From Patescibacteria group bacterium (GTDB lineage Bacteria; Patescibacteriota; Microgenomatia; UBA12405), in the NCBI GenBank assembly GCA_018902845.1, contig JAHIPV010000013.1, forward strand, positions 82,766-146,765: a DNA stretch of 64,000 nt. The letters are read 5' to 3'. The notes under the pieces are model-generated. The model saw nothing but the letters and a program-made list of their open reading frames with translations. It was not told where the DNA came from and searched no databases. A program made the position numbers and the translations under genes. Numbering within the stretch: position 1 is the stretch's first letter; the number at the start of each line of letters is the position of its first letter. Of the stretch, positions 16,666-33,417 are shown one piece after another.

Positions 16666-16675
16666 TTTAAATAAT

Positions 16676-18073
16676 ATGACCAAAAATACAAAAGAATATA
16701 TTTATTATGTCAGAGGAATGCATTGCGCTTCTTGCCAGATTTTAATCGAAAAGAAATTATTAAAATTAAGGAACATAAAATCAGTTGAGGTCTCAACTGC
16801 CAAAGGCAAGGCGCTAATCGAATACGACGGCCAAAAACCAACCCTCCAAAGATTGAACCGAATTTTCAAAAAAGAAACTTATACTTTTTTCGACAGACCA
16901 CAAAAAATAATAAATAATTTTAAGTCGAAAGAATTTCTTATTACTCTTGGCATCGGACTATTAATTATTATCGGTTTTATCGGATTAAACAAACTGGGAT
17001 TATCGAGCTTAATAAATGTTAATTCAAAATCGTCTTTACCGGTATTTTTTATATTTGGAATTATGGCCGGCATTTCTAGTTGCGCCGCCTTAATTGGTGG
17101 AATAATTCTTTCTATGTCAAAACAATGGGGCGAATTATATTCAGATACCGATTCTATCTGGAAGAAAATTCAGCCACACTTAATTTTTAATGCTGGCAGA
17201 CTTACTTCTTACGGTCTGTTGGGAGCAGTATTGGGAATAGTCGGTAGCAAACTAGATTTTTCCTTAAATTTTGGACCGGTTTTGGCCATCGCTGTTTCTG
17301 TCATGATGATTTTTTTGGCTTTTCAAATGTTTGGTTTCAAAGTCTTTAGGAAATTTCAATTTACAATGCCAAGGTTTATCACCGGATTTATCGCCGACGA
17401 ATCTAATTTTAAAGGTCGCTATATGCCATTTTTAATGGGCGCCTTTACTTTTTTTCTACCCTGCGGTTTTACCATAACGGCCCAAGGACTCGCTTTAATA
17501 TCCGGCAGTGCAACTCAAGGGGCTTTGATCATGGTTTTATTTGCGCTAGGGACCCTACCGATGCTTTTAACTATTGGTTTGTCTAGTGTTAAATTTTCTC
17601 AAAAGCCACACCTATCCACCAAATTCCTGAAAGTTGCCGGAATTTTGGTTTTATTTTTCGCTCTCTACAATATAAATTTCCAACTAAATGTCCTAGGGGT
17701 TTCCAGTCTTAGCGATTTGGGCATTAATTCTAGTCAATCTTCCGGCACTGCAAAAAATAATTTGCTTCAAAACGAAGAAGGCTTACCTCCAATTGTTAAT
17801 GGTAAACAAATTATAAAAATGGACGCTTCTTCTCGTGGCTATTTACCAAGCTATTTTAAAGTAAAAGCCGGAATACCGGTAAGGTGGGAAATTACCGACA
17901 AAGGAACCAGTGGTTGTACCAATGCCATTATTTCAAAAAGCTTGTTTGAGGGAGAAATCCCCCTGACTCCGGGTCAAACTAGTATTAAGGAATTTACTCC
18001 CAAAAAGCCGGGTAAGTATAAATTTAGTTGTTGGATGGGAATGGTTTCGGGGATTATAGAAGTTAAAATATAA
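16676..18073 (+). CDS. Fusion protein: HMA metal-binding domain, DsbD_2-like Cys-containing membrane domain, and a C-terminal cupredoxin-like domain
   Basis: YYVRGMHCASCQILIEKKL is the MxCxxC HMA motif. TM helices carry conserved Cys (ISSCAALIGG, FFLPCGFTITAQG). The C-terminal beta-rich domain has C and M ligands (SGCTNAI...FSCWMGM). Confidence 0.5.
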   Translation: MTKNTKEYIYYVRGMHCASCQILIEKKLLKLRNIKSVEVSTAKGKALIEYDGQKPTLQRLNRIFKKETYTFFDRPQKIINNFKSKEFLITLGIGLLIIIGFIGLNKLGLSSLINVNSKSSLPVFFIFGIMAGISSCAALIGGIILSMSKQWGELYSDTDSIWKKIQPHLIFNAGRLTSYGLLGAVLGIVGSKLDFSLNFGPVLAIAVSVMMIFLAFQMFGFKVFRKFQFTMPRFITGFIADESNFKGRYMPFLMGAFTFFLPCGFTITAQGLALISGSATQGALIMVLFALGTLPMLLTIGLSSVKFSQKPHLSTKFLKVAGILVLFFALYNINFQLNVLGVSSLSDLGINSSQSSGTAKNNLLQNEEGLPPIVNGKQIIKMDASSRGYLPSYFKVKAGIPVRWEITDKGTSGCTNAIISKSLFEGEIPLTPGQTSIKEFTPKKPGKYKFSCWMGMVSGIIEVKI

Positions 18074-18091
18074 AATTTTAATTTTATAAAT

Positions 18092-20290
18092 ATGAATCAA
18101 AAAACAATTTTACAAATTCAAGGCATGCACTGTGCCTCGTGTGCAACCACTATAGAAAATGCTCTCAAAAAGGAAAAGGCCATCATTTCAGCCAATATTA
18201 ATTTTGCTTCGGAAAAAGCCAATTTAGAGTTTGACTCTAAAAAAATCAAAATCAAGCAAATCAAAAAAATTATTCAAAAATTAGGCTATCAAACTAATCA
18301 GCAAAAAACTCAAGGAATAAAACAATTAAAAAAACGACTTATTTTTTCCTCTCTATTTGCCTTGCCACTCATTTATATTGTTATGGGCCAAATGCTTGGT
18401 CTGCCAATACCGCCATTTATTAAAGAATCAAATATTTTGATTCAATTTGTTTTAGCCACAATTGTAATTTTGGCTTGTTTTAATCTCTGGATCTCTGGAT
18501 TTAAGAATTTAATACAGCTAAGGCCCAATATGGATTCTCTAATTTTTATTGGCACGGCCACCGCTTATTTTTACAGCCTTGCTCTGTCTGTTTCTTTTTG
18601 GTTGCAAATTCAAAAATCACCTCCTCATTTATATTATGAAAGCACTGTCTTTATTCTTGTTTTTATTTCACTTGGCAAATATCTGGAAACAATTACAAAA
18701 GGAAAGACCGGTCAAGCCATAAAAAAATTAATTGGGCTTCAGCCAAAAGAAGCAACGATTATCAAAAACGGTCAGGAAATGAAAATTCCCATTTCCGAAG
18801 TAAAAGTTGGGGATATTGTTTTGGTAAAACCCGGCCAAAAAATTCCGGTCGATGGAATCGTAATTGATGGATATTCAGGCGTGGACGAAAAAGCAATAAC
18901 CGGTGAGAGCCTTCCGGTTGAAAAAAGAAAAGGGGACAGAGTTATTGGCGCCACAATTAACAAAACTGGTGTTTTAAGGTTTAAAGCAACAAAAGTTGGA
19001 AAAGATACCATGTTGGCTCAAATTATAAAAACAGTGGAAGAAGCAATCGGTTCAAAAGCGCCGATTCAACTTCTGGCTGACAGAGTTTCTTTTTATTTTG
19101 TTCCCGCAGTAATCGCTATGGCCATTTTTGCTTTTATTATCTGGATTATTTTAGGCCAATCTCTTGCTTTTGCCTTGACTGTTTTTGTAGCTGTTCTTAT
19201 TATTGCCTGTCCTTGCGCCTTAGGATTGGCAACTCCCACAGCCGTCATGATGGGCACAGGGCTGGCGGCTCAACATGGCATTTTAATTAAAACCAGCAAA
19301 GCCTTAGAGACGGCCCAAAAAGTAAACATAATTATTTTTGATAAAACAGGCACTTTAACCAAAGGCGAACCAAAAGTGACAAACATCCTAAGCCTATTAA
19401 AGTCCATGTCTCAAAAGCAAGTTTTGCAGATAGCCGCTTCAATAGAAAAAAACTCTCAACATCCTCTTGCTCAAGCTATTGTTCAAAAAGCCAAATTAGA
19501 AAACCTTAGTTTTTTAAACATCCAAAATTTTGAAGAAATACCAGGCAAAGGTGTTATAGCTCAATCCAAAGGAATCAAGCTTTTATTGGGAACAAGAAAG
19601 TTAATGGGCCAAAATAATATCAATACGAATTCTATCGAGAAACAATTGGCCAAATTAGAAAATCAAGGCAAAACAGCCATGATTTTGGCTCAAGCTAAAA
19701 ATATTATTGGAATAATTGCCGTAGCCGATACTTTAAAAAAGTATTCCAAAGAAGCGGTGGCCATGTTGCACAAATTGGGCAAAAAAGTCGCCATAATTAC
19801 GGGGGATAACAAAAGAGTAGGACAAGCCATTGCCAAACAAGTCAATATAGACAAAATTTTAGCCCAAGTTTTACCCCGGCAAAAATCAGAAGAAATCAAA
19901 AAATTACAAAAAGAAGGAAATGTTGTGGCCATGGTGGGCGATGGCATAAACGACGCTCCGGCTTTGGCTCAAGCTGATTTGGGTATTGCTTTAGGTTCCG
20001 GCACAGATGTGGCTATGGAAACCGGAGAAATAGTTTTAATTAAAGATGATCTAAGAGATGTGATAACAGCCATTGATTTAAGCAAATACACTTTAAACAA
20101 AATTAAACAAAATCTTTTCTGGGCTTTCTTTTACAATATTGTCAGTATTCCTATCGCCGCCGGTATTTTGTATCCTTTTACCGGCTGGCTTTTAAATCCG
20201 GCAATTGCCGCCGCAGCCATGGCACTTTCGTCAATTAGTGTTGTTTCAAATGCTCTTTTGATGAAAAGATACCAACCCAAACAACTCTAA
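18092..20290 (+). CDS. copA: Copper-translocating P1B-type ATPase
   Basis: HMA motif [18 protein letters not shown] motif ([12 protein letters not shown]), [17 protein letters not shown]. 732 aa. Confidence 0.9.
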
Positions 20291-20400
20291 TCCAGCCTCG
20301 CCATCTTTTGACAATCAAAATTTTATTTTTCTCTTATTTTTTTATTTTTCAAAAATTCCCTAGTCCGCCTTTGGCGGATAAATTTGTGATTTGCTTTCCC

Positions 20401-20520
20401 CTTCCGTCATCCTGAGTGAGTTTTACGACCGAAGGATCTAGCGAAGCGTTTTTTTTGGAAATTCTTTAGTCCGCCTTTGGAGGAAGAATTTCGGATTTGG
20501 GATTTAGGATTTATTAAAAA
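20401..20520. repeat. Composite repeat: family A, family C (tagtccgcctttggcgga) and family D units
   Basis: ccgtcatcctgagtgagttttacgaccgaaggatctagcgaagcg, then ttggaaattctttagtccgcctttggaggaagaatttcggatttgggatttaggattt. Confidence 0.6.
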
Positions 20521-20539
20521 TTTCCCGCTCCCAGCGTGG

Positions 20540-20665
20540 TCGGCATTGTACCGAAAAATTCGAACTATATATATGAAATTATAACACTCGCCCCGCACGC
20601 TGTGCCTGTCCGCCTGTGGCGGAGGCGGTCGGCACGGCGAAAACAGCGGGGCTCCGCCGACGCAA
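20540..20665. repeat. IR-A left copy; its reverse complement is 27681-27804
   Basis: tcggcattgtaccgaaaaattcgaactatatatatgaaattataacactcgccccgcacgctgtgcctgtccgcctgtggcggaggcggtcggcacggcg matches the reverse complement of 27700-27804 with about 2 mismatches. Similarity decays over the outer ~20 bp. Confidence 0.85.
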
Positions 20666-20844
20666 AGCTATGGCGGACACAGTCGATTGAAAATTATTTT
20701 TTGCGCGCGCGATTTTTCAAAAACGCAGAATCATCGAAAAACTTTGTCAGTATATTTTTCTTAAATTTGACTACACTCCTACTGTCACTTTTAATGATAA
20801 AAGCTCTGCCTATAATATTTTGCTAACAGATTCAATCAAATCTC

Positions 20845-21504
20845 TTACTTGATATCGTTTGTCCGACATTCGATATAAAGATTCTTCACTAATTTATCTA
20901 GTTTCTTAAACCTACTTTTTGCTAGTTGACCTATTTTCTTGAAGTGATATTCACTCAATTGGCTAAGGGCAATTGGTCTTCCTTTTTTGCTCCAATATTC
21001 AAACATGCCATCTAAATTACGTTCCCTATGTTCATTAAATGCGATGAGACGAATTAAAAGCATTATTCCACTATTATCTAACCTATCTGCATCCCAGATT
21101 ACATATGATTCAAATTCAGTTAGGTTATTTCCATGGTGACCACCAATTATTCTGCTGATCTTTTTTATTAAATCACTGTTACCCACGTATTTACCTAAAT
21201 AATCTGCAATTATTTTCTCTCCAACTTCATCGTGTTTGAATTTTTCATCATCATAGCCTTCCATAAATTTCATATCATTAACTTTATGTATTTTACCAAT
21301 GTCATGGAATAAGGCAGCGATCAATAAAGCGTCTTTGTTGACATTTTTATTCTTTAAAAAATCCATTTCACAAAAATGTTTACAATAATTAAACACTCTG
21401 ACACCGTGATCTAAGCGGTATTCATATCCTGTGTATTCTTTTACACCTTTAAATACTCTCGTATATTTTTTTATTAAATCATCGTAATTAATGCTATTGC
21501 TCAT
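20845..21504 (-). CDS. HD-domain phosphohydrolase
   Basis: LLIAALFHDIGKIH, IIGGHHG, WDADRLD. Confidence 0.65.
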   Translation of the reverse strand: MSNSINYDDLIKKYTRVFKGVKEYTGYEYRLDHGVRVFNYCKHFCEMDFLKNKNVNKDALLIAALFHDIGKIHKVNDMKFMEGYDDEKFKHDEVGEKIIADYLGKYVGNSDLIKKISRIIGGHHGNNLTEFESYVIWDADRLDNSGIMLLIRLIAFNEHRERNLDGMFEYWSKKGRPIALSQLSEYHFKKIGQLAKSRFKKLDKLVKNLYIECRTNDIK

Positions 21505-21516
21505 ACATACCGGACT

Positions 21517-22554
21517 TTAATTAAAAGACGATCCTCCAGGAAACCATAAGCCTTCGGTTTCGTCAAAGCCATTCATTAAATTATAATTTTGTATAGCCTG
21601 TCCCGCCCCACCTTTAATTAAATTATCAATCGCGGCAAGAATAACGATAAATTTGTTCTTAGCGTAAACTGAAATGTCAATGAAATTTGTACCAGACACA
21701 TTTCTAATCTCGGGAGAAACGTCTCTGAATCTCACAAACGGTTCGCCTCGGTAGCGTTCGGTAAAAATATTTTTTATTTCTGATGTGGTTACTGTCTTAT
21801 CTGTAGTTATGCACATACTAGCCAACATACCTCTTTTCCACGGCCCAACATGCGGGATTATTGCAGGTACTAACCGTACTCCTGTCTTGTCATTAATAAA
21901 CGCAACTATTTCATCTTCGTGCTGATGGGTAAAAACTTTAAATGCTCTATAGTTTTCATTCCTAATAGGGAAATGCGTGCCATAAATTGGTTCTGATCCG
22001 GAGCTGCTAGCCCCGCTACTAAAATTGATACAAAGGTTGTTGATGTTGTATTTTGATAGAACTGGAAATAATCCCAACTGAATGACTGTAGCGGCACAGC
22101 CAGGATTTGCTATCTTTGTGGAGCTACATATTGTTGTTCTGTTTATTTCCGAAAGACCATAGACAAATTCATTATTAACCAGTGGGTGTTGGATTGATGG
22201 CCTAAAAAAAGATCCCAAATCAATAATTTGGATGTTTACATGTTCTGTCTTTGCTGACTTTATTATTGTATTGATTTCATCTTCTACGATATCAGAAGGG
22301 AATATTGAAAATATCGTCAAATTATCGTTTTTGTATTGATTAAGATTCTTTAGGTTTTCACTAAACTTGATATCTGTAAAACTCTTCAGGCGCGGATGAA
22401 TATCTGAAATAAATTTTCCAGGATTACTATGGGATGTTACTTGAACCACGTCAGTGAACTTGTGTAACAGTAGTATACTAAGTAGTTCACCTGCTACATA
22501 ACCAGATCCACCACATATAACAACTTTTCTTTTTTTCATATTCATAGAAATCAA
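21517..22554 (-). CDS. ArgC/LysY-family semialdehyde dehydrogenase (N-acetyl-gamma-glutamyl-phosphate reductase-like)
   Basis: KVVICGGSGYVAGELL is the Rossmann motif. ANPGCAATVIQLGLFPV is the catalytic Cys motif of the ArgC type. C-terminal NLIKGGAGQAIQNYNLMNGFDETEGL. Confidence 0.6.
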   Translation of the reverse strand: MISMNMKKRKVVICGGSGYVAGELLSILLLHKFTDVVQVTSHSNPGKFISDIHPRLKSFTDIKFSENLKNLNQYKNDNLTIFSIFPSDIVEDEINTIIKSAKTEHVNIQIIDLGSFFRPSIQHPLVNNEFVYGLSEINRTTICSSTKIANPGCAATVIQLGLFPVLSKYNINNLCINFSSGASSSGSEPIYGTHFPIRNENYRAFKVFTHQHEDEIVAFINDKTGVRLVPAIIPHVGPWKRGMLASMCITTDKTVTTSEIKNIFTERYRGEPFVRFRDVSPEIRNVSGTNFIDISVYAKNKFIVILAAIDNLIKGGAGQAIQNYNLMNGFDETEGLWFPGGSSFN

Positions 22555-22579
22555 ATAGTTGTGATATTATAGATAATAT

Positions 22580-23545
22580 ATGCATCAAAATATAGATACA
22601 ATAAACAATTTGATTGGTATCTTCAAGAAGAGGTTAGCAAGACAGTTTGGTCAAAGTCTGGTGCTTTTTGATATCACTGCTTACCAAAACAAAGGTGAAG
22701 TTATTCTTAATGGCGAGGTGGGAACTGTCAAATTAAAGAATAAATTTATGGGCATAATTAACAGAAAAAAGATAACTGTAACTGATAATATTAAAACTTT
22801 ATCAGACCCAAAAGATCATCTGGAAAGTGGTTGGGGTAAATCTCTTATAGATCAAAACACATATAGGTCTACAGAAGAGCAGCCGAAGCTAGCGACACAT
22901 GTTTTAAGTGGTGAAACATTTCGTGTCCTGAAGCAAATTAGTGGTTGGTATTTAGTTCAGTTAGAGGACTTGTCTATGGGATGGATCCGCATACCAAACA
23001 AGGATTGTGTTGTGGTTTTTAACGATAAAATCCCAGAATATCGTGAATTTTCAGACCGTTGGCAGAAAGTTCCAAGAGTAAACTCTACTAGATTACAGTT
23101 TGTCTTTCCAGATCAGGAGACACTAGAGAGGAAATTAACAGATATATTTTCTACATATATGGGAATGCCATATATATTTGGTGGACGTTCACCTAAATTC
23201 GGTTTCGATTGTTCCGGATTGATCCAGAATATTATTTTCAAACTTGAGAATGTTCTTTTACCTAAAAACAGTTTGGACCAAATCGTACTTGGAAAAAAAG
23301 CCAATATAAAAGCATTTGATAAAAACCAATTCAAAATTGGTGACATAGTTTTTATTAGGATCAGAAAGAAGATCCCTCATAGTGGAATAGTGACCAGTCA
23401 GGGCATTTTGCATGCAGAAGGTTTAAATCAAAAAATAGTTCTTATCGATAGTTTTGAGGATATTGCTAATCCAGCTAAATTTGCTCATCAATGGCAAAGA
23501 GATTTTGGTAAAGTAGTCCGGTTTTTTCGGTTTCAAAATGACTAG
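22580..23545 (+). CDS. NlpC/P60-family peptidase with N-terminal SH3-like domain
   Basis: YIFGGRSPKFGFDCSGLIQNI carries the catalytic Cys. HSGIV carries the His. An upstream region is SH3b-like. Confidence 0.6.
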   Translation: MHQNIDTINNLIGIFKKRLARQFGQSLVLFDITAYQNKGEVILNGEVGTVKLKNKFMGIINRKKITVTDNIKTLSDPKDHLESGWGKSLIDQNTYRSTEEQPKLATHVLSGETFRVLKQISGWYLVQLEDLSMGWIRIPNKDCVVVFNDKIPEYREFSDRWQKVPRVNSTRLQFVFPDQETLERKLTDIFSTYMGMPYIFGGRSPKFGFDCSGLIQNIIFKLENVLLPKNSLDQIVLGKKANIKAFDKNQFKIGDIVFIRIRKKIPHSGIVTSQGILHAEGLNQKIVLIDSFEDIANPAKFAHQWQRDFGKVVRFFRFQND

Positions 23546-25221
23546 AACCTAACAGGTGGCATAATATCTCTATTAGAGATTATATCTATAACCGATGGTA
23601 CTTGGTTTTTCAATATTGTATTTACTAATTCACTGTTAAGGTTGTTCAAGTTGGTTATTCTATATCCAGCCGCACCAAGTGATCTTGCCATTGTGTCAAA
23701 CCTCGGTTTTGTACTGTAGAAATTTGCACTGCTTGTAAATCCGGTTTGAACCTGACCATGGTGAATTGCCGCCAAACCATAATTGTTAATAATTATCCAT
23801 ATAATCGGTAATTTATACTCAACTGCTGTGTGCACTTCTGTACCATGCATAAGGAAGCTTCCATCACCAACGATAGCAACAACAGGTTTATTAAGGGCAA
23901 AACTTGCACCAATAACACCAGCAGTAGCATAACCCATTGGTGAAAATCCTCCACCTTCAATAAAAGTATACGGGGTATTGAACTCCATTCGGTTTATGGC
24001 CCATGCTCGAGGTGTGCCAGCGTCAACAATAAAAATAGTTTTATCGTCGAACAAGAAACGGACTTTATCTATAACCATACCAGGATCAAGGCCGGATTTG
24101 TCGTATTTTTTGTTGAGGATTTCACACTTATCGTAGTATTTACTTTTAAGTTCTAAATTTTTCTTAAGGGCAGTATCCGTTGCTCGTAATTTGATCCTAT
24201 TATTCATCTCTTTTAGAATTACTTTAATATCACCAAGCACACTTATCCCGACCTTCAGATTTTTCCCAAATGAGGCAAAATCATTATCAATTTGGATAAT
24301 GAAGCTGTCTCTTAGATTGTCACACCAAAGGTTCGTTGACCATGAACCGAGTCTTGAACCGACAACTAATACTATGTCAAACTTCTCTTTATTTAATAAA
24401 TTATTTGCTAAACATGAACCTGCATGTCCTATAGTTCCGAAGAATAGTTTGTTTTTGTTTGCAAAGCAACTCTTTGCCTTGCTAGTAGTTACCACAGGTA
24501 CGAATAATTTGTTTACTAATTCTCCAAATTCATCGACTGCCCTAGAAGCTAAAACTCCATGTCCACCAATAACTAAAATCGTTTTTGCTTTGGAAATTTT
24601 ATCTACAGCAGCGCATATATTTTTTTTACTTTCATCTAGTAAATAATTGTTTTCAGATAACTTGCAACTTGGGAGATTCTTCGTTTGTAGGACACTGACA
24701 TCTGAAGTAATTATATTTACAGGTAAGGATAAAAATATAGGCTGTTTCTTGTCATTTATTGTATTGACTGTTTGAATTAGTCGTTTGACCGCATTTTTTG
24801 GATTGGTACATATCAAACTTTGGTTGATTACCATCTTATACATTCCAACGACATTAATAGACTTTGGATCTGAACTCTGAAACACATCTTTACCAAAATA
24901 CTTTGTATTTACCTCACCCGAAATTATCAGAAGGGGTGTAGAGTTGGATTTTGCCATGGCCAATGCTGTTCCTAGCCCTGTGGCACCAGGACCAGATGAT
25001 ACAAGACACACACCAATTTTACCTGATACTCTCGAATATACCTCGGCCATGTAGCCAGCACCTAACTCTGATTTAGCAAGAACAAATTTAATTTTTTTTG
25101 ATTTACTTATATCTTCAAGTATTGGTTTAATAGGAGCACCAGGAATTCCAAACACATATTCGACCCCTATGTTTTCCAGTAGACTTACCAAAACTTCACT
25201 AAACTTCTTTTTTAGAATCAT
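23542..25221 (-). CDS. Thiamine-diphosphate-dependent enzyme (acetolactate synthase large-subunit family)
   Basis: N-terminal ThDP pyrimidine-binding domain (GIPGAPIKPIL...ELGAGYMAEVYSRVSG...SGPGATGLGTALAMA). C-terminal GDGSFLMHG Mg-ThDP motif. Confidence 0.7.
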   Translation of the reverse strand: MILKKKFSEVLVSLLENIGVEYVFGIPGAPIKPILEDISKSKKIKFVLAKSELGAGYMAEVYSRVSGKIGVCLVSSGPGATGLGTALAMAKSNSTPLLIISGEVNTKYFGKDVFQSSDPKSINVVGMYKMVINQSLICTNPKNAVKRLIQTVNTINDKKQPIFLSLPVNIITSDVSVLQTKNLPSCKLSENNYLLDESKKNICAAVDKISKAKTILVIGGHGVLASRAVDEFGELVNKLFVPVVTTSKAKSCFANKNKLFFGTIGHAGSCLANNLLNKEKFDIVLVVGSRLGSWSTNLWCDNLRDSFIIQIDNDFASFGKNLKVGISVLGDIKVILKEMNNRIKLRATDTALKKNLELKSKYYDKCEILNKKYDKSGLDPGMVIDKVRFLFDDKTIFIVDAGTPRAWAINRMEFNTPYTFIEGGGFSPMGYATAGVIGASFALNKPVVAIVGDGSFLMHGTEVHTAVEYKLPIIWIIINNYGLAAIHHGQVQTGFTSSANFYSTKPRFDTMARSLGAAGYRITNLNNLNSELVNTILKNQVPSVIDIISNRDIMPPVRF

Positions 25222-26029
25222 AATTCTTTTTCGAGCAACTTTATTATGTTATTTTGATCTTTATGTTTGTATCCCGAAAATACTTTTTCTGTTAAATCAA
25301 TTAATGGAAAACGACCGTACTTTCGTGTAAATTTTTTTATCATGGCAGTATCTTTTTCTCTGATGTCAATACATTCACTTGGAGTAATTTGTTTGGTCAG
25401 TATACTGTTAATGTTTCTTTTCCACACCCAATAAATATTTGTCAATATTCCATCTAGTAAAATTTTTTGATGTCGTTTATTTAATTTCAACAAATTAATC
25501 AATCTCAATATCTCAAAAGATATGATCAAGTTTGTATATCTTGGTGTATTTCTCAACAGTTTTAGTGTTGATGCTGAACCCACATCGCCGGTATAAACGA
25601 TATGTTTTGAAAATAATTTGAGTAAAGGCTTCATTCTTCTATAAACATTGGGAGCTCCACCTACCTCCAAGTGTAAAATACCAAGTTTGGCATCATTTTC
25701 GCGTCCTTTTATGGGAGACTCCAGGTAAGAGACTTTCTTTTTTTTACATATTTGAGTATGCCATTTTTCCCAAAAATAACTTCTTTTGATACTCTTGGTA
25801 GAGGCAGGCATATAAAAAATACTTTTGCACTTTGTGCAATACTAGTTAAATCCGGGCAAGCTATGCAACTGTCACCAAATTCTGACTTTAATTTGTTAGA
25901 TTTTGCTTTATCTTTATCAAAAACAAATATGGAGCTACTAGTATTTTTGATGATGTTTGAAGCAATACCATATCCCATTCTTCCAAGGCCTATAACTCCT
26001 ATCAGAAAGCTGTCCTTATTCATTTTCAA
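25218..26029 (-). pseudogene. 3-hydroxyisobutyrate/6-phosphogluconate dehydrogenase-family oxidoreductase split by a frameshift in a T8 homopolymer
   Basis: ORF 25709-26029 carries the NAD-binding IGVIGLGRMGYGIASNI. ORF 25218-25811 carries the C-terminal HIBADH-like HLEVGGAPNVYRRMKPLLKLFSKHIVYTGDVGSASTLKLLRN. The two overlap out of frame around the poly-A/T run at 25735-25745. Confidence 0.5.
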
Positions 26030-27611
26030 GTAATTCCTTTAATACCAAATAATCATTAAACGGTATTTTTTCAGAACCTATTTGTTGGAGGTTGTGATGA
26101 CCACTGCCTAAAACAATAATTAAATCTCCCGGATGTCGTATTTCCAAAGCTTTTTTAATTGCCAACCTTCTGTCGGGAATTGTAATAAATGCGCTATTTG
26201 ACTTTATAACACCTTCTTTAATTTCCTTTACTGCAACATCAACTGATTCAAGTTTAGGGTTATTAGTGGTTATCACAACGATATCAGCTTTTTCCCCAAT
26301 CACTTGTCCCATTAGTCGCCTCTTTTGATTTTGGCCATCCCACTCTCCTCCATAAACGGCAATGACTCTTCCTTTGACGAGAGATCTTGATAAATTGAGT
26401 GATTCGGACAATGAGCTCTCATTGTGGGCGTAATCAACCACAAATACAGAATCGTTCTTCTCGATGATCTGGTATCTACCAGGAGGAACCGTGATTTCGG
26501 GTAGTACTTTGACAATGTTTTCTATAGATACTCCCATCTCGGCGGCCGCTAGAATGGCCGCTAAACAATTCTGTACCTGAAAAGCACCCATTAAATTAAT
26601 TTTAGTTTGGTATGATGCTCCGTTAATCGTAAAACAAAAAATAGTTCCCCGAAGTGTTTCAATTATTTCTTCGGCGTAGAGGTCGGCCATTTTGTCTTTG
26701 GTGCTAAATGTTAATACTTTAAGATTGGATGGGAAGATCTTGTCTTGGCCTAATGTAGAATCGTCCTTGTTAGTAACTATAAAACCGCCACTTTTAATTA
26801 GATCACCCAAATGTTTTTTTGTAGCTAGGTACTCTGCAAACGTACCATGGTAGTCGATGTGATCGTTGGAGATATTCGTAAAAATCGCCCCAGTAAACAT
26901 AGAGGAGTCAACTCTTTTTAGCGCTAAATCATATGAGTTCACTTCCATGACTACGGCATTTTTACCTCCGTCCGCGTCAAGACGAATTCTTTCAACAATT
27001 CTATTTGCCTCCAGTATCTGGCTATCCGATTTAACACCAGTAAACGAAAATAATGCGCCACTTGTGTAAGAACCAAATGCATCTACTTGTTTACCGCAGA
27101 GTTTTAGTATAGAAGCAAGCATCCAAATTGTACTAGTTTTTCCACTCGATCCAGTAACACCTATAACAGAAATCTCTTTTGAGGGGAAACCAAAGTAATA
27201 ATTCGATATTTTTGCAACCGCTTCTCTAGTATCTTTAACTTGAACTTGTGGGATATTTATACCTTCTTGCAACTCAGAAACTATACAGCATACCGCACCT
27301 TGTTGTTTGACGTCTTGTATAAACTTGTGACTATCAAAATTTCTTCCTTGATTTGCTACAAAAATAGCATTCTGTTTGACTTCTCGCGAATCAAAACATA
27401 TATCACTAACTTCCACCCCATTTATTGATTTATCGAAAAATACCGTATTAACAATATCGTCGCTAAGATATTTAAGAATATTTCCTACTTTTTTTTTGCT
27501 TAATAGACATTTACTTTTATCGTTCAAATATAATTTTTGTGCATTATACAGCAATTTTATCACTATCCATTTTAAATGGATCACCAAAAACGGTCTGGCT
27601 GATAACATCAA
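26016..27611 (-). CDS. murE: UDP-N-acetylmuramoyl-tripeptide ligase MurE-like (Mur ligase family)
   Basis: VIGVTGSSGKTSTIWMLASIL P-loop. DYAHNESSL corresponds to the Mur ligase DxAHNP motif. Three-domain architecture. The true start is probably an internal Met or TTG. Confidence 0.7.
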   Translation of the reverse strand: MMLSARPFLVIHLKWIVIKLLYNAQKLYLNDKSKCLLSKKKVGNILKYLSDDIVNTVFFDKSINGVEVSDICFDSREVKQNAIFVANQGRNFDSHKFIQDVKQQGAVCCIVSELQEGINIPQVQVKDTREAVAKISNYYFGFPSKEISVIGVTGSSGKTSTIWMLASILKLCGKQVDAFGSYTSGALFSFTGVKSDSQILEANRIVERIRLDADGGKNAVVMEVNSYDLALKRVDSSMFTGAIFTNISNDHIDYHGTFAEYLATKKHLGDLIKSGGFIVTNKDDSTLGQDKIFPSNLKVLTFSTKDKMADLYAEEIIETLRGTIFCFTINGASYQTKINLMGAFQVQNCLAAILAAAEMGVSIENIVKVLPEITVPPGRYQIIEKNDSVFVVDYAHNESSLSESLNLSRSLVKGRVIAVYGGEWDGQNQKRRLMGQVIGEKADIVVITTNNPKLESVDVAVKEIKEGVIKSNSAFITIPDRRLAIKKALEIRHPGDLIIVLGSGHHNLQQIGSEKIPFNDYLVLKELLENE

Positions 27612-27680: not shown

Positions 27681-27804
27681 TGTTCAATCGAGCCCCGCGT
27701 TTTACGCCGTGCCGACCGCCTCCGCCACAGGCGGACAGGCACGGCGTGCGGGGCGAGTGTTATAATTTCATATATATAGTTCGAATTTTTCGGTACAATG
27801 CCGA
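27681..27804. repeat. IR-A right copy (reverse complement of 20540-20665), directly abutting IR-B
   Basis: See IR-A left. Reading the minus strand through 27895-27681 gives continuous R2-TCGG-R1. Confidence 0.85.
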
Positions 27805-27895
27805 CAATTCATGAATGTTCTGATTTTTTAAAGTGGCGCAGGCCAAACTCGCACCGTTGGCCAGCGCCAAGAATCCGTCATTTTGAAATTTTGGG
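27805..27895. repeat. IR-B left copy; its reverse complement is 29340-29430 (91 bp, identical)
   Basis: caattcatgaatgttctgattttttaaagtggcgcaggccaaactcgcaccgttggccagcgccaagaatccgtcattttgaaattttggg is the reverse complement of 29340-29430. It encodes the same peptide RPKFQNDGFLALANGASLACATLKNQNIHEL on opposite strands. Confidence 0.9.
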
Positions 27896-29339
27896 CGTAC
27901 AATAAAAGTAGTTATAGAAACGCAAAAATTTTTATGAAGTACGTTGCTTACTGCCGTAAATCTACTGATGAACCTGATCGCCAAATTCTTTCAATTGAAG
28001 CTCAAATTGCCGAAGTAAAAGAATTCGCCCAAAGAGAAAACCTAGAAATTGTCAATTTTATTATCGAAAGTCGCACCGCTCGAAAGCCGGGTCGACCAGA
28101 ATTCCAAAAAGTGTTGCAAATGCTTGAGACTGGCAAGGTTGGTGGCATCATTTCATGGCATCCGGATAGGCTAGCTAGAAATTCAATCGATAGCGGTCAA
28201 CTGATATATCTTCTAGACATTGGAAAACTACTTGATTTAAAGTTTCCAACTTTTTGGTTTGATAACACTCCCCAAGGCAAATTTATGCTTAATATCGCTT
28301 TTGGCCAATCCAAATATTATGTCGATAACCTGTCCGAAAATGTAAGGCGCGGAATAAGGCAAAAACTCCGCAGGGGTGAATGGCCATCAAAAGCTCCCTT
28401 TGGTTATCAAATGGATTCCACCAAAAAGTTGATAGTTGACCGTAAAACTGGTAAATATGTTAAACAAATTTTTGAAATGTATGCCACCTGTCGGTATACA
28501 TATGTTGATTTGCAAAACTTTTTGTTCGATCACAAAATTTATTCTAAGCATGGTAATAAAATCGACATTGGTACATTAAAACGAATTCTGATCGACCCCA
28601 TCTATTACGGAACAATGAAGATGAAGGGCGAATTCTTTTAGGGAGTCCATAAACCCATCATCACCAAGAAACTTTTTGACAAAGTTCAAACGGTAATCAA
28701 TCGTAAATCAAAAAATTATTTATCCAACAAAACTGATTTTCACTTCTTAGGTCTAGCCACCTGTGGCGAATGTGGCTCGTCCATTACCGCTGAAAAACAT
28801 CGTAAGCATTACTTGCGTCGAAACATTGATGTTGATTACCACTATTATCGGTGCAGTAAGAAGAAAATGCCATGTCATCAATCATATCTACCATCATCAA
28901 TATTTGAAAATCAATTAAGACAAATAATTTTTAAGGCTTCAATATCACCATTTGTCGCCAAAAAGTTTCTTGATTGGGCTAGTGATGATGTTAATAGTGA
29001 AACCCAAAATACATCAGATGAGATTAATACCCTATCTTCGGCAATTTCAGATACAGATTCCAAACTTAATAATCTTCTCGATGGTTACATTGATAAAACC
29101 ATCGATCCACTTGATTACCAAAGAAAGAAAAACGAATTAATTCAATATAAAGTTACCACCGAGGAGAAAATCAAAGAAATTAATACCAATGGTTCGAGTT
29201 GGCTCGAACCATTTACGGAATTTGTTAATAGTGCGCTACTAGCGCACAAAATCGCGCGTGCAAAAAATAATTGCACCGATTTACTAATCGGTGCCAAAAC
29301 TGTCGGCTCGAACTACTTTTTATTGGATAAAACAATACA

Positions 29340-29430
29340 CCCAAAATTTCAAAATGACGGATTCTTGGCGCTGGCCAACGGTGCGAGTTTGGCCTGCGCC
29401 ACTTTAAAAAATCAGAACATTCATGAATTG
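29340..29430. repeat. IR-B right copy, ending exactly at the 3' end of tRNA-Pro
   Basis: See IR-B left. The junction reads gaattgTCGG|ggatacaggattcgaacc. Confidence 0.9.
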
Positions 29431-29504
29431 TCGGGGATACAGGATTCGAACCTGCAACCTCACGCACCCCATGCGTGCGCGCTAGCCAATTGCGCCAATC
29501 CCCG
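29431..29504 (-). tRNA. tRNA-Pro (anticodon GGG)
   Basis: Minus-strand fold: acceptor CGGGGAT/ATCCCCG, D-stem GCGC/GCGC, anticodon stem CACGC/GCGTG with loop ATGGGGT (U33, anticodon GGG, G37), T-arm GCAGG-TTCGAAT-CCTGT, discriminator A. CCA is not encoded. Confidence 0.75.
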
Positions 29505-29526
29505 AGCATTTCTATTATATCTCAAC

Positions 29527-30774
29527 TTATCTCAAAAAATCACCCAACTCGATCAATTTCACATTAGCCGAAAAATCTTTTATTTTTTTTAAAATATTCA
29601 TAGAAACAACATTTATTTTTTTATTAATAAAATCATACCTTTCCAGTATTTTACCATCCAGTTTCATCCCTGTTTTTACTTCAAACAAACCATCTTTGCA
29701 TTCAAAATCAATCTCCAGGTCGTCAAAAATTTCATAATATATTCTATATTTTTCTCTTAACGACTCTCTCCTTAATAATTCAAGGAAAACCGCATTTTCA
29801 ACCAAATGTCCTATCCTTGGTCTAATACTCATCAAGCTTAACACTCCTGTATCGTTAAAATAATATTTCGGATTTGATGATCTACTTATTCGATTAGATC
29901 TTCCTTTGCGATACACGGGATAAACAAGATATACCGATTCCAAGTATTTCAAATAAAATTTGGCTGTTTCATCATCTATTTTCAAGTCTTTCTGAATTCT
30001 CTTTGCGCTTACAGGTGTTGTAATTTTATCAGCCAAATAATAAAGCAAATCCTCCAGAATAACAGGATTTCTTATTCCATAAAGCGACAGAAGATCTCTA
30101 TACAAAGTAGACTCAATTGCTTGTTTTAAATATGTTTGATTATTTTTTAAAACAAATTCAGGATAACCGCCTTTTTTCAAATATTCCTCAAGTAAGTTTT
30201 TCTTTTTATTTTTAGAAAGTCTGGAAACAACCACTCCGTTAAAATTAAGAAATTCAGAAAAACTCAATGGCAATATTTTTTGCAAAAAATATCTGCCAGT
30301 CAATTTGCTGGTTTTTTGCGTCAATATCAAGCTGGAAGATCCGGAAATATAAAACTTTATCTTAGTGTGGTCATACAAAGTTTTTAGATCTGACTGCCAG
30401 TTATCAAGCTCTTGAATTTCATCTACCAATATGTGCAAAGAATCACCGATTTTACATTTATTTAATTTAATTACATCAGTAATTATTTGCCTCAATCCTG
30501 CTTCTTTCACCTCTCTCAAATCAGCGCTCAAAAAAATGATTTTTTTAGGAGATATGCCATGTTTTAACAAGCGGTTTACAACAGAATAAAGAATATATGT
30601 TTTTCCAACCCTTCTTGCTCCAATAAGTATGTCTATTAGTCGATCTTTTCTGTCCATAATTTCTCTCAAATAAGCTGGCCTGTTAAAAACATCATACTTA
30701 AACGTTTTTTTCTCCCACCATGGATTTAATGTTTCTATAAAATCAAAGTCAGTTCTTACATCCATACTACTCAT
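29527..30774 (-). CDS. AAA+ ATPase of the AAA_14/DUF4143 family
   Basis: LIGARRVGKTYIL Walker A. LHILVDEIQEL Walker B. The C-terminal half is DUF4143-like. 415 aa. Confidence 0.6.
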   Translation of the reverse strand: MSSMDVRTDFDFIETLNPWWEKKTFKYDVFNRPAYLREIMDRKDRLIDILIGARRVGKTYILYSVVNRLLKHGISPKKIIFLSADLREVKEAGLRQIITDVIKLNKCKIGDSLHILVDEIQELDNWQSDLKTLYDHTKIKFYISGSSSLILTQKTSKLTGRYFLQKILPLSFSEFLNFNGVVVSRLSKNKKKNLLEEYLKKGGYPEFVLKNNQTYLKQAIESTLYRDLLSLYGIRNPVILEDLLYYLADKITTPVSAKRIQKDLKIDDETAKFYLKYLESVYLVYPVYRKGRSNRISRSSNPKYYFNDTGVLSLMSIRPRIGHLVENAVFLELLRRESLREKYRIYYEIFDDLEIDFECKDGLFEVKTGMKLDGKILERYDFINKKINVVSMNILKKIKDFSANVKLIELGDFLR

Positions 30775-33373: not shown

Positions 33374-33417
33374 TTTTTTCTGCTATTCTTAATTTGTGCA
33401 TAAACCAAAACTCTGCA
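33374..33417 (+). repeat. 44-bp direct repeat copy 2; contains the GTG start and signal-peptide start of the LTD protein
   Basis: ttttttctgctattcttaatttgtgcataaaccaaaactctgc. Confidence 0.8.

What the first reader, a model, noticed from the sequence alone, without database searches (positions are those of the whole stretch)
20845..27611. Cargo between IR-A copies looks like a cell-wall or amino-acid tailoring module
Six co-located genes on a segment bounded by recombinase-associated repeats: an HD phosphohydrolase, an ArgC/LysY-type semialdehyde dehydrogenase, an NlpC/P60 D,L-endopeptidase-like protein with SH3, an acetolactate-synthase-like ThDP enzyme, a beta-hydroxyacid dehydrogenase (frameshifted), and a MurE-like ligase.
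MurE adds the position-3 diamino acid to UDP-MurNAc-L-Ala-D-Glu, and NlpC/P60 enzymes cleave gamma-D-Glu to diamino-acid bonds.
The dehydrogenase/ThDP/reductase trio could make an unusual (di)amino acid substrate. This functional link is inference.
Basis: inference. Interest (0 to 1): 0.55.

Follow-up and report, generated by a model that had tools for sequence, protein, structure and literature searches.

The report
Mobile six-gene MurE-like tailoring cassette
A rare six-gene operon in a few uncultured Patescibacteria combines a cell-wall (MurE-type) ligase with a rebuilt amino-acid pocket, a cytoplasmic stem-peptide peptidase and three aldehyde-handling enzymes; this suggests an undescribed way of modifying cell-wall precursors, although the copy in this window is already decaying.

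Summary
All six domain assignments, the broken dehydrogenase and the 116-nt inverted repeats are real.

The six genes form a true unit. The same order (Mur ligase, HIBADH-like, ThDP enzyme, NlpC/P60 on the opposite strand, ArgC-like, HD) recurs in six Patescibacteria lineages at 57-95% amino-acid identity. The flanks are unrelated, the context is never dcw, and dN/dS is about 0.1-0.2.

The family is very isolated. Each protein drops from about 60% to 35% identity or less outside the cassette. Only one representative exists among 1.84 billion proteins.

The MurE-like ligase keeps its catalytic motifs. Every known position-3 determinant is replaced in a conserved way (DNPR to NNPK, GKGHE to GSGHH, GGDRD to GGEWD).

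My best reading is an accessory, horizontally moved pathway that tailors the gamma-D-Glu-linked position of cytoplasmic UDP-MurNAc-peptide. The chemistry is inferred, not shown. A diamino-acid product is unlikely, because there is no aminotransferase and no kinase.

The window copy is decaying. A 73-nt deletion breaks the dehydrogenase, and an A9 frameshift removes the ligase's ancestral start.

IR-A is not a dispersed repeat. It lies next to a large serine recombinase pseudogene, and the cassette is flipped relative to that module in another lineage.

The parts
20539..20654 (.). IR-A left arm (called 'alpha' in this report), outer end at 20539
   Evidence: 116 nt, 97% complementary to 27690-27805. 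Homologous copies with the same outer boundary lie next to the cassette in UBA1372 (L019/L010) and in L035. No other copy in the window or in 446 kb of related loci.
20692..20716 (.). 25-nt segment 'j', an inverted copy of 29248-29272 inside the recombinase 3' region
   Evidence: 96% match. In UBA1372 there is a single j, which joins the HD-downstream spacer directly to the recombinase 3' remnant.
20845..21504 (-). HD-domain metal-dependent hydrolase, subfamily undefined
   Evidence: PF01966 E=2e-11. Only weak hits in NCBIfam and PDB. Conserved as the last gene of the cassette in all lineages whose contigs reach it.
21517..22545 (-). ArgC/LysY-type NAD(P)-dependent semialdehyde dehydrogenase
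   Evidence: TIGR01850 254.9 bits against a cutoff of 233.6. Best PDB hits are ArgC and LysY, E~1e-38 to 1e-34. The catalytic Cys is kept (NPGCAAT), but the canonical SGxxGAGR is replaced by SGASSSGS.
22580..23545 (+). Cytoplasmic NlpC/P60 cysteine peptidase with an SH3b (SH3_16) domain, YkfC/DPP-VI type
   Evidence: PF00877 and PF18348. Best PDB hits are dipeptidyl-peptidase VI 3NPF/3PVQ and YkfC 3H41. Cys211, His267 and His278 are invariant. It has no signal peptide, unlike its nearest outside relative P0395.
23542..25221 (-). ALS-superfamily ThDP enzyme (carboligase or decarboxylase), not an acetolactate synthase equivalog
   Evidence: Three TPP domains. Best ALS model scores 303.7 against a cutoff of 538. 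The closest solved structure is BbmA 8X3X (312 bits), against 173 bits or less for any ALS.
25218..26029 (-). HIBADH-family beta-hydroxyacid/semialdehyde reductase, a pseudogene in this strain
   Evidence: NAD_binding_2 is split over two ORFs. There is a 73-nt deletion relative to the intact 292-298 aa orthologues.
26016..27527 (-). MurE-derived ATP-dependent ligase with a remodelled third-substrate pocket. The ancestral ATG (27508-27510) is out of frame because of an A9 run (27489-27497). Only the TTG at 27525-27527 keeps a 503-aa ORF.
   Evidence: for family and motifs. for the 5' frameshift, which is identical in five independent assemblies.
27543..27557 (-). Conserved upstream element (TTGCTGTATAAT, extended -10-like), marking the upstream edge of the DNA shared by all cassette versions
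   Evidence: DNA homology with L013 and L008 starts at window 27557. The motif is conserved in four lineages. Promoter function is inferred only.
27690..27805 (.). IR-A right arm (alpha), outer end at 27805, overlapping IR-B by 5 nt
   Evidence: Homology with UBA1372 starts exactly at this outer end.
27801..27899 (.). IR-B left arm, an inverted copy of the sequence that follows the 3' end of tRNA-Pro
   Evidence: 99 nt, 99% complementary to 29336-29434. UBA1372 has only the tRNA-side copy.
27937..29592 (+). Large serine recombinase (integrase type), a pseudogene. It has an in-frame TAG at 28639-28641, and its 3' end reads through IR-B and antisense through tRNA-Pro.
   Evidence: Resolvase and Recombinase domains. 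phrog_95 integrase. Single in-frame stop.
29336..29434 (.). IR-B right arm, immediately 3' of tRNA-Pro
29430..29504 (-). tRNA-Pro(GGG). The same tRNA flanks the cassette in UBA1372, but on the HD side.
   Evidence: ARAGORN and Rfam. L019 9683-9757.

Best explanation
The segment is a rare, self-contained accessory operon, about 6.7 kb (window about 20850-27557). It has moved between Patescibacteria genomes and is not the housekeeping cell-wall locus.

Its core is a MurE-derived, ATP-dependent ligase. This ligase still has the UDP-MurNAc-dipeptide-type domains and the catalytic motifs. The pocket that normally holds lysine or diaminopimelate has been rebuilt.

The ligase works with five other enzymes:
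- a cytoplasmic YkfC/DPP-VI-type peptidase, a type that cuts gamma-D-Glu-X bonds;
- an ArgC-type enzyme (acyl-phosphate to aldehyde);
- an ALS-like ThDP enzyme (C-C bond formation or decarboxylation at an aldehyde or 2-oxo acid);
- a HIBADH-type reductase (aldehyde/ketone to alcohol);
- an HD hydrolase.

The most likely job is to put, build or remodel a non-canonical, non-diamino residue at the gamma-D-Glu-linked position of the cytoplasmic stem-peptide precursor. The peptidase would then release or edit it.

Shown: the unit, its conservation, its isolation, the pocket changes and its mobility context. Inferred: the substrate, the order of steps and the product.

In this window the operon is no longer intact. 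The dehydrogenase is deleted internally, and the ligase has lost its ancestral start. The operon lies between inverted copies of a 116-nt element that belongs to the upstream region of a now-dead large serine recombinase next to tRNA-Pro. The cassette is flipped relative to that module in another lineage.
For: Unit and conservation:
- The six genes occur in the same order in six lineages with unrelated flanks.
- Shared DNA ends at the six genes plus about 50 nt upstream.
- dN/dS is 0.08-0.19 for every gene, with similar divergence across genes.
- Gene ends overlap.

Isolation:
- ThDP enzyme drops from 57% to 35% identity, the ligase from 62% to 35%, the P60 from 63% to 23%.
- One representative in 1.84 billion proteins; the next hits are ordinary MurE or MurE fusions.
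- One of 185,579 species genomes, one metagenome locus, no viral contig.

Ligase:
- MurE models pass their cutoffs, and it aligns over all three domains to solved MurE structures.
- The P-loop, DH..H and KCX-region motifs are kept. DNPR becomes NNPK, GKGHE becomes GSGHH and GGDRD becomes GGEWD, invariant in five lineages.
- These are the residues that hold the side-chain amine and distal carboxylate of Lys/mDAP (PMC3829189).

Non-dcw:
- The context is never dcw, while the nearest outside homologue sits in a textbook dcw cluster.

Peptidase:
- DPP-VI/YkfC type, catalytic triad intact, no signal peptide.

Accessory and mobile:
- It lies in a variable region with a copper operon, toxin-antitoxin and defence genes.
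- Two independent populations carry broken copies.
- Cassette dS between the window and UBA1372 is 0.2-0.6, while the neighbouring SNase gene is saturated at 58% aa identity.
- A recombinase or recombinase remnant is adjacent in three lineages.
Against: - There is no functional data of any kind.
- An ArgC-type reductase needs an acyl-phosphate, and no ArgB/LysZ-type kinase is in any version of the cassette.
- No aminotransferase is present, so a new amino or diamino acid cannot be made from scratch.
- The link to the cell wall rests on two of six proteins.
- The ThDP enzyme's closest characterised relative (BbmA/CsmA) is of a function I could not retrieve, and it may point to secondary metabolism.
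- I could not check whether these genomes also have a canonical murE.
- The P60 structure model was too poor to confirm the YkfC-like architecture.
- The HD protein is unassigned.
Confidence: 0.45

Rival explanations
1. Small-molecule (secondary-metabolite-like) pathway unrelated to the cell wall. The Mur-type ligase simply makes an amide bond in a gamma-glutamyl-type compound. The ThDP, ArgC-like and HIBADH-like enzymes build its carbon skeleton. The NlpC/P60 acts as a maturation or self-resistance amidase.
For: - The ThDP enzyme is much closer to BbmA/CsmA (312 and 209 bits) than to any acetolactate synthase. These carry gene-cluster-style names.
- The cassette is rare, patchy and mobile, like a biosynthetic gene cluster.
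- LysY-type reductase plus ThDP enzyme plus reductase is the logic of carrier-mediated DADH biosynthesis (PMC11726168).
Against: - The ligase keeps MurE-specific domain 1 and its DSR/DxH motifs, and passes the MurE family cutoffs.
- The peptidase is of the stem-peptide type.
- No transporter, regulator or core scaffold enzyme is present.
- Patescibacteria have very small biosynthetic repertoires (general knowledge).
Confidence: 0.2
2. Salvage or catabolic module for scavenged muropeptides. The cytoplasmic P60 splits imported L-Ala-gamma-D-Glu-X. The ligase re-attaches a usable residue to the cell's own precursor. The aldehyde-handling enzymes and the HD hydrolase degrade or convert the released moiety, with ArgC-like working oxidatively and HD hydrolysing the acyl-phosphate.
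For: - YkfC/DPP-VI enzymes act on free stem peptides in recycling (family knowledge).
- Patescibacteria depend on host-derived building blocks (general knowledge).
- No kinase is needed if ArgC-like runs in the oxidative direction and HD removes the phosphate.
- A DD-carboxypeptidase gene on the same contig shows the organism handles D-Ala-D-Ala stem peptides.
Against: - No peptide or muropeptide transporter, LD-carboxypeptidase or epimerase is in any version.
- The rebuilt, conserved ligase pocket argues for a new substrate rather than re-use of Lys/mDAP.
- The ThDP step has no obvious role.
Confidence: 0.15
3. The ligase is simply this lineage's housekeeping MurE, and the other five genes are unrelated neighbours.
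For: It passes the NCBIfam MurE thresholds and is annotated as MurE in GenBank. No other Mur ligase is in the 64-kb window or within about 20 kb of extensions.
Against: - The six-gene order is conserved with unrelated flanks and equal divergence.
- The context is never dcw (for contrast).
- There is a gap from 62% to 35% identity instead of a continuum of orthologues.
- The specificity residues are replaced.
- The ancestral start is lost in this strain.
Confidence: 0.04

Closest known systems
Canonical MurE (UDP-MurNAc-L-Ala-D-Glu:L-Lys/meso-DAP ligase) of the dcw cluster
   Same: - Three-domain Mur ligase with P-loop, Mg/ATP and carbamyl-lysine-region motifs.
- Aligns end to end with T. maritima, S. 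aureus and E. coli MurE.
- Passes TIGR01085.
   Different: - All known third-substrate determinants are replaced: Asp and Arg of DNPR, Glu-468/460, and Arg of GGDRD.
- Never in dcw. Always operonic with HIBADH-like and ThDP genes.
- 35% identity or less to any other MurE.
MurT-GatD (a Mur-ligase paralogue that phosphorylates a stem-peptide carboxylate so that a partner enzyme's nucleophile can attack); from my own knowledge
   Same: A Mur-ligase-family protein with a non-canonical third-substrate site, working with dedicated partner enzymes on a stem-peptide carboxylate.
   Different: - No sequence affinity beyond the family level. MurT-type chains were not among the good PDB hits.
- The partners here are a reductase and carboligase set, not a glutaminase.
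- Partnership is inferred from synteny only.
YkfC / dipeptidyl-peptidase VI (gamma-D-glutamyl-L-diamino-acid endopeptidases with SH3b domains)
   Same: SH3b plus NlpC/P60 architecture. These are the best PDB matches. Cys-His-His triad is present.
   Different: - Only about 23-27% identity to the nearest outside relative.
- Has an extra N-terminal alpha/beta domain of about 75 aa.
- No signal peptide.
- The fold could not be confirmed.
N-protected glutamate/aminoadipate pathways: ArgB-ArgC, LysW(AmCP)-LysX-LysZ-LysY, and the AmCP-mediated DADH pathway (LysY-type reductase, then ThDP enzyme, then further tailoring on the carrier; PMC11726168)
   Same: - An ArgC/LysY-type reductase followed by ThDP-dependent C-C chemistry and a reduction.
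- A gamma-glutamyl amide link as a possible protecting or carrier bond.
- A final hydrolase.
   Different: - No carrier protein, ATP-grasp ligase, amino-acid kinase or aminotransferase.
- The ThDP enzyme is ALS-type, not a transketolase.
- The ligase is Mur-type.
Glyoxylate carboligase (Gcl) + tartronate-semialdehyde reductase (GlxR) pair; from my own knowledge
   Same: An ALS-family ThDP carboligase translationally coupled to a HIBADH-family reductase. The HIBADH-like protein's best NCBIfam hits are tartronate-semialdehyde reductases, though far below cutoff.
   Different: Gcl structures score only about 118-120 bits. The cassette context is entirely different.
Serine-recombinase inversion modules (phage Mu G / P1 C segments with Gin/Cin) and large-serine-recombinase integrative islands at tRNA genes
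   Same: - A multi-kb segment between inverted repeats with a serine recombinase gene just outside one repeat.
- The two orientations are seen in different lineages.
- Adjacent to a tRNA 3' end.
   Different: - The recombinase is a large integrase-type enzyme and is a pseudogene here.
- The repeats are 116 nt.
- No flanking direct repeats or target duplication.
- Three lineages show no repeat or recombinase at the cassette ends their contigs cover.
- Inversion within a population was not tested.

Membership tests
MurE (TIGR01085 / NF001126) | Three Mur-ligase domains and a score above the curated family cutoffs | tested here: met
   PF01225, PF08245 and PF02875. TIGR01085 339.1 against 257.3. 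NF001126 373.9 against 373.
MurE (TIGR01085 / NF001126) | ATP/Mg catalytic motifs (P-loop GxxGKT/S, ExxS, DH..H, carbamylated-Lys region) | tested here: met
   GVTGSSGKTST, MEVNS, NDHIDYHG and YLATKK are conserved in five lineages.
MurE (TIGR01085 / NF001126) | Position-3 determinants: DNPR or D(D,N)P(N,A), plus Glu-468 (E. coli) / Glu-460 (S. aureus) | tested here: not met
   NNPK and GSGHH are invariant in the cassette clade. Residue roles are from PMC3829189.
MurE (TIGR01085 / NF001126) | Housekeeping dcw context (next to murF, mraY, murD, ftsW) | tested here: not met
   None of six lineages. Contrast P0126.
MurE (TIGR01085 / NF001126) | Adds Lys/mDAP to UDP-MurNAc-L-Ala-D-Glu; sole essential copy | not testable with these tools
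   Needs enzymology and the full genomes. Only about 85 kb around the locus was visible.
ArgC / LysY (TIGR01850) | Both semialdehyde-dehydrogenase domains, catalytic Cys, score above cutoff | tested here: met
   254.9 against 233.6. NPGC motif aligned to ArgC.
ArgC / LysY (TIGR01850) | Partner kinase (ArgB/LysZ) and other arg/lys pathway genes supplying the acyl-phosphate | tested here: not met
   No amino-acid-kinase family gene in any cassette locus or its flanks.
YkfC / DPP-VI gamma-D-Glu-X endopeptidase | NlpC/P60 Cys-His-His triad plus N-terminal SH3b domain | tested here: met
   PF00877 51.3 bits. PF18348 27.8 against 25.8. Invariant C211/H267/H278. Best PDB hits are 3NPF/3PVQ/3H41.
YkfC / DPP-VI gamma-D-Glu-X endopeptidase | Overall fold with SH3b closing the S2 site for an N-terminal L-Ala | tested here: inconclusive
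   The AlphaFold model has mean pLDDT 51.6, too poor for fold search.
Acetolactate synthase large subunit (TIGR00118) | Equivalog-level score; ilv context or small subunit | tested here: not met
   303.7 against a cutoff of 538. No ilv genes nearby. Closer to BbmA than to any ALS.
Serine-recombinase DNA-inversion module | Segment bounded by inverted repeats with an adjacent serine recombinase | tested here: met
   IR-A pair. Recombinase 132 nt beyond the right arm. The alpha-recombinase adjacency is also present in L035.
Serine-recombinase DNA-inversion module | Both orientations of the segment occur | tested here: inconclusive
   Opposite orientation relative to the alpha-recombinase module in the window and L035, and relative to tRNA-Pro in the window and UBA1372. 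These are different lineages. Heterogeneity within a population was not tested. The recombinase carries a TAG stop.
tRNA-linked integrative island | Integrase next to a tRNA 3' end, with att direct repeats at both island ends | tested here: inconclusive
   tRNA-Pro(GGG) is adjacent in two lineages, and tRNA-Glu is about 0.8 kb away in a third. The recombinase or its remnants are present. No convincing flanking direct repeats.
Known anti-phage defence systems (PADLOC) / phage modules (PHROGs) | Cassette proteins match system-specific models | tested here: not met
   Only generic HD/Cas3-HD similarity. The other five proteins have no PADLOC hit. PHROG hits are generic.

The most novel reading that the evidence does not exclude
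The nucleotide-muropeptide is itself used as an amino-group carrier, and the Mur-type ligase acts as the missing kinase.

Proposed steps:
1. The ligase forms the normal gamma-D-glutamyl phosphate on UDP-MurNAc-L-Ala-D-Glu. This is the 'UDP-MurNAc-phosphodipeptide' intermediate of every MurE. Chemically it is an N-acyl-gamma-glutamyl phosphate, which is the substrate type of ArgC.
2. Instead of passing it to an amino acid, the ligase hands it to the ArgC-like reductase. This yields a stem-peptide gamma-semialdehyde.
3. The ThDP enzyme extends the semialdehyde, the HIBADH-like enzyme reduces it, and the P60 and HD hydrolases release or trim the product.

This would be a MurT/GatD-like partnership used for reductive side-chain chemistry. 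It would also be a LysW-like carrier strategy built on a cell-wall precursor.
Probability: 0.15. Interest if true: 0.85.

Novelty: new variant of a known kind. Interest (0 to 1): 0.6.

Why it matters
- MurE decides the cross-linking residue of peptidoglycan. It is a textbook single-copy, dcw-embedded enzyme. Here a MurE clade has every position-3 determinant replaced and is locked in an operon with reductive and carboligase enzymes and a stem-peptide peptidase. That implies stem-peptide chemistry, or a use of UDP-MurNAc-peptide as a scaffold, that has not been described.
- It is directly testable. Intact versions (L013, UBA1372) are only 6.7 kb, and all substrates of the first step are available.
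- It shows that even minimal Patescibacteria genomes exchange metabolic cassettes through recombinase- and tRNA-linked segments, and lose them again quickly.
- For annotation: GenBank currently names this protein as an ordinary DAP-adding MurE.

Tried and rejected
- Second murE in the genome. Not testable. There is no paralogue in the window or in about 20 kb of contig extensions. The single genome-collection scan found only UBA1372.
- IR-A as a tRNA-like or structured RNA. ARAGORN and Rfam found nothing. The GC-rich hairpins differ in arrangement between lineages.
- IR-A as the terminal repeats of a transposon common to all cassettes. Rejected: L011 and L013 have no flanking repeats, L008 has none upstream of its ligase gene, and the window has no target duplication.
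- Defence-system or phage origin of the cassette. No PADLOC match, no viral contig.
- Function of BbmA/CsmA, the closest solved relatives of the ThDP enzyme. Not found in the paper library.
- Literature search for the gene combination. No paper.
- P60 structure. Only five sequences were available and the model was too poor, so no fold search was run.
- Promoter/terminator scan. No more sites than in shuffled sequence.
- A complete step-by-step history of the nested inverted duplications (IR-A, IR-B, j). Several inversion models fit partly and none fits fully.
- P0241, the 420-bit hit, is a tandem MurE-MurE fusion and not a cassette relative.

Full report
**1. Observation**

The window is a low-GC Patescibacteria chromosome segment. 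The same sequence is in NCBI MAG GCA_018897325.1, contig JAHIKP010000010.1, and in several ENA and Logan assemblies. ORF listing and profile searches confirm all six assignments:
- HD hydrolase, 20845-21504 (-).
- ArgC-type semialdehyde dehydrogenase, 21517-22545 (-). It passes TIGR01850.
- NlpC/P60 with an SH3_16 domain, 22580-23545 (+).
- Three-domain ThDP enzyme, 23542-25221 (-).
- HIBADH-type dehydrogenase split into two ORFs, 25218-26029 (-).
- Three-domain Mur ligase, 26016-27611 (-). It passes the MurE subfamily model.

The inverted repeats are real. IR-A is 116 nt at 97% (20539-20654 / 27690-27805). A second pair, IR-B, is 99 nt at 99% (27801-27899 / 29336-29434). IR-B brackets a large serine recombinase gene and ends at the 3' end of tRNA-Pro(GGG), 29430-29504.

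**2. The six genes are one conserved unit**

Exact-protein and homology look-ups recovered the same gene order: Mur ligase, HIBADH-like, ThDP enzyme, P60 on the opposite strand, ArgC-like, HD. Five further lineages carry it:
- L013-L016, 90-95% aa identity.
- UBA1372 (L010, L019, L021), 83-93%.
- L008, about 81%.
- L035/L036, 65-75%.
- L009/L011/L012, 57-65%.

The flanks differ in every lineage:
- Window: a copper operon and the recombinase.
- L013: DUF218, HD, His-phosphatase and NUDIX genes.
- L011: DUF5677 and PMT_2.
- L008: HAD, NUDIX and radical-SAM genes.

None of them is a dcw cluster. At DNA level, homology to L013 and L008 runs only from window 20854 to 27557. That is the six genes plus about 50 nt carrying a conserved TTGCTGTATAAT element.

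Gene ends overlap. All six genes show dN/dS of 0.08-0.19, with the same level of divergence in each lineage pair. This rules out chance co-location.

**3. The family is very isolated**

Outside the cassette, identity falls abruptly:
- ThDP enzyme, 57% to 35%.
- Ligase, 62% to 35%.
- P60, 63% to 23%.

An exhaustive profile search of 1.84 billion representatives found a single cassette representative at 1034 bits. The next hit, at 420 bits, is a tandem MurE-MurE fusion. After that come ordinary MurE and MurE-MurF proteins.

Among the 185,579 species-representative genomes, only UBA1372 matched (the scan used two peptide patterns). One JGI metagenome locus matched and no viral contig did.

The best outside ligase homologue (P0126, 35%) lies in a textbook dcw array: ftsL, PBP, murE, murF, mraY, murD, ftsW, murG, murC.

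**4. The ligase**

It aligns over its whole length with solved MurE structures. The best is T. maritima 4BUB at E=2e-70. It keeps the domain-1 DSR and DxH motifs, the P-loop (GVTGSSGKTST), MEVxS, NDHxDYHG and the carbamyl-lysine region.

The third-substrate site is changed, identically in all five lineages aligned:
- DNPR / D(D,N)P(N,A) becomes NNPK.
- GKGHE becomes GSGHH.
- GGDRD becomes GGEWD.

The S. aureus MurE structure paper gives the roles of these residues (PMC3829189):
- The first Asp of the motif together with Glu-468 (E. coli) / Glu-460 binds the side-chain amine.
- The Asn and Arg-416 hold the distal carboxylate of mDAP.

Here the Asp is Asn, the Arg is Lys and the Glu is His (alignment). 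The enzyme is therefore probably an active ATP-dependent ligase for a UDP-MurNAc-dipeptide-like acid. Its partner substrate is not a standard diamino acid. That step is inference.

**5. The other five proteins**

- *P60.* Its best solved relatives are Bacteroides dipeptidyl-peptidase VI and B. cereus YkfC. These are gamma-D-Glu-X endopeptidases acting on free stem peptides. The Cys-His-His triad is invariant. Unlike its nearest outside relative, it has no signal peptide, so it should act in the cytoplasm. The structure model was too poor to use.
- *ArgC-like.* It keeps the catalytic cysteine, but SGxxGAGR is replaced by SGASSSGS.
- *ThDP enzyme.* It fails every acetolactate-synthase equivalog cutoff. 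It is far closer to PDB 'BbmA' (312 bits) and 'CsmA' (209 bits) than to any ALS (173 bits or less). I could not find what those enzymes do.
- *HIBADH-like.* The intact orthologue resembles 2-(hydroxymethyl)glutarate, 3-hydroxyisobutyrate and tartronate-semialdehyde dehydrogenases. These enzymes interconvert aldehydes and primary alcohols.
- *HD protein.* It has no informative relative.

No version of the cassette contains an amino-acid kinase, an aminotransferase, a carrier protein or a transporter.

**6. The window copy is decaying**

- The dehydrogenase lacks 73 nt between short direct repeats. This removes the conserved ELSTLSP segment and shifts the frame.
- The ligase's ancestral ATG (27508-27510) is out of frame because an A-run is A9 (27489-27497), where relatives have A6 or A8. 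Only an upstream TTG preserves a 503-aa ORF.
- Both lesions are identical in independent assemblies from different samples.
- In a second lineage, one population (L009) carries a 97-nt deletion in the ThDP gene and a split ArgC-like gene. Its sister contig L011 is intact.

Repeated recent inactivation against a background of strong purifying selection fits a dispensable, conditionally useful accessory function. It argues against this being an essential MurE.

**7. The repeats and the recombinase**

IR-A ('alpha') is not a dispersed repeat. It has two copies in the window and none elsewhere in 446 kb of related loci, except next to the cassette.
- In UBA1372, one alpha copy lies upstream of the ligase gene. 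Homology with the window begins exactly at alpha's outer end.
- In L035, one alpha copy lies on the HD side. A remnant of the same recombinase family (60% aa identity) sits next to alpha's outer end.
- In the window, the right-hand alpha abuts IR-B and then the recombinase start.

The recombinase is an integrase-type large serine recombinase (phrog_95) with one in-frame TAG at 28639.

Relative to the alpha-recombinase module, the cassette is in opposite orientations in the window and in L035.

Relative to tRNA-Pro(GGG), the cassette is also reversed between the window and UBA1372. In UBA1372 the order is HD, spacer, j, the last 45 or so codons of the recombinase, IR-B sequence, tRNA-Pro. The 25-nt j segment and IR-B are single-copy there and duplicated in inverted orientation in the window.

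The cassette therefore behaves as a segment that has been inverted at least once. The breakpoints lie in recombinase-associated sequence at a tRNA-linked site.

Cassette genes are much less diverged between the window and UBA1372 (dS 0.2-0.6) than the neighbouring SNase gene (58% aa identity, dS saturated). This suggests horizontal transfer.

However, L011 and L013 have no flanking repeats and no recombinase, and L008 has none on its one visible flank. IR-A is therefore not the general vehicle. I could not derive a single clean rearrangement history.

The surrounding 13-35 kb of the window is a variable region. It holds a copper operon, an NTase toxin-antitoxin pair, a PDC-S01 candidate defence gene, AbiEii and a nuclease. 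Core genes lie on both sides: recA, RNase Y, ArgRS and Lon.

**8. Mechanism, most likely reading**

Shown:
- A conserved, isolated, mobile six-gene operon.
- A MurE-derived ligase with a rebuilt third-substrate site.
- A cytoplasmic stem-peptide-type peptidase.
- Three enzymes whose families all handle aldehydes.

Inferred:
- The operon tailors the gamma-D-Glu-linked position of the cytoplasmic UDP-MurNAc-peptide.
- Either the ligase attaches a non-diamino compound that the other enzymes make or modify, or (the novel case) the ligase's own gamma-glutamyl-phosphate intermediate is reduced by the ArgC-like enzyme. The latter would explain the missing kinase.
- The P60 would release or edit the product.

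The rivals cannot be excluded:
- A cell-wall-independent small-molecule pathway.
- A muropeptide salvage module.

A housekeeping MurE with unrelated neighbours is essentially excluded.

**9. Comparison with known systems**

It works most like a hybrid of three things:
- MurE.
- MurT/GatD-type partnerships (own knowledge).
- N-protected glutamate-semialdehyde pathways: ArgB/ArgC, LysW/AmCP, and the DADH pathway (PMC11726168).

It fails defining features of each:
- The MurE specificity residues and dcw context.
- The ArgB/LysZ kinase.
- The carrier protein.
- The ALS equivalog score.

I found no description of this gene combination. I rate it a new variant of a known kind, that is, Mur-ligase-based precursor chemistry. 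If the acyl-phosphate hand-off is real, it would rate higher.

**10. Limits**

- There is no functional data.
- The full genomes could not be searched for a second murE.
- The function of the nearest characterised ThDP relative is unknown to me.
- Inversion was inferred between lineages, not within a population.

Noticed in passing
window 27489-27510 (- strand): An A9 homopolymer lies right after the ancestral ATG of the MurE-like gene and puts that start out of frame. Relatives have A6 or A8 and are in frame. This could be a simple inactivating slip or a phase-variable tract.
   Followed up: partly
L009 vs L011 (L011 10344-10440): A sister population of the 60% lineage carries a 97-nt deletion in the ThDP gene and a split ArgC-like gene, while L011 is intact. 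This is a second independent case of cassette decay.
   Followed up: partly
window 16399-20290: Copper-resistance operon immediately left of the cassette: a CsoR-type repressor, an HMA-DsbD_2-cupredoxin membrane protein and a CopA-type P-type ATPase.
   Followed up: no
window 29527-30774, 32456-33368, 14595-15313: Defence and toxin-antitoxin genes around the cassette: an AAA_14/DUF4143 protein matching PADLOC candidate system PDC-S01 (E=4e-75), AbiEii with a small upstream ORF, and an NTP_transf_2 / NTase_sub_bind pair.
   Followed up: partly
window 1824-1863, 6241-6581, 13348-13702, 20400-20447, 57213-57252; also 40356-40395, 43150-43189, 48391-48430, 62942-62981: Two families of short dispersed intergenic repeats: CGTCATCCTGAG...GAAGGATC and the hairpin GTAGGGGCGACCCTTGCGGTCGCCC. 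They look REP-like and are unrelated to IR-A.
   Followed up: no
window 33396-34631, 35076-37385, 43348-44982: Large secreted or surface proteins with Thr/Pro-rich 12-nt-period repeats (ACTCCnACCCAA...) and Lamin-tail/fn3 domains. Several neighbouring large ORFs (38599-39744, 40374-43130) have no Pfam match.
   Followed up: no
P0241 (protein): A 979-aa tandem MurE-MurE fusion. The first half carries DNPR and the second half DNAE. This suggests two position-3 specificities in one polypeptide.
   Followed up: no
PDB 8X3X / 8X3Z: The cassette ThDP enzyme, a set of about 35%-identical 'ALS-like' proteins from bacteria and archaea, and phage family phrog_11199 (292 bits) all appear to belong with BbmA/CsmA rather than with acetolactate synthases. 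The function of that subfamily could not be retrieved.
   Followed up: partly
L031 20275-21189 (about 19 kb beyond the window's left end) and L033 2060-2872 (beyond the right end): A Peptidase_S11 DD-carboxypeptidase on the same contig indicates a D-Ala-D-Ala-containing wall. A tyrosine integrase gene lies beyond the right end.
   Followed up: no
L011 15245-15318; L013 16783-17424 and L035 842-1483: tRNA-Glu(CTC) lies about 0.8 kb downstream of the HD gene in the 60% lineage. A DUF218 gene directly follows HD in two other lineages, so it may be a seventh, facultative member of the cassette.
   Followed up: no
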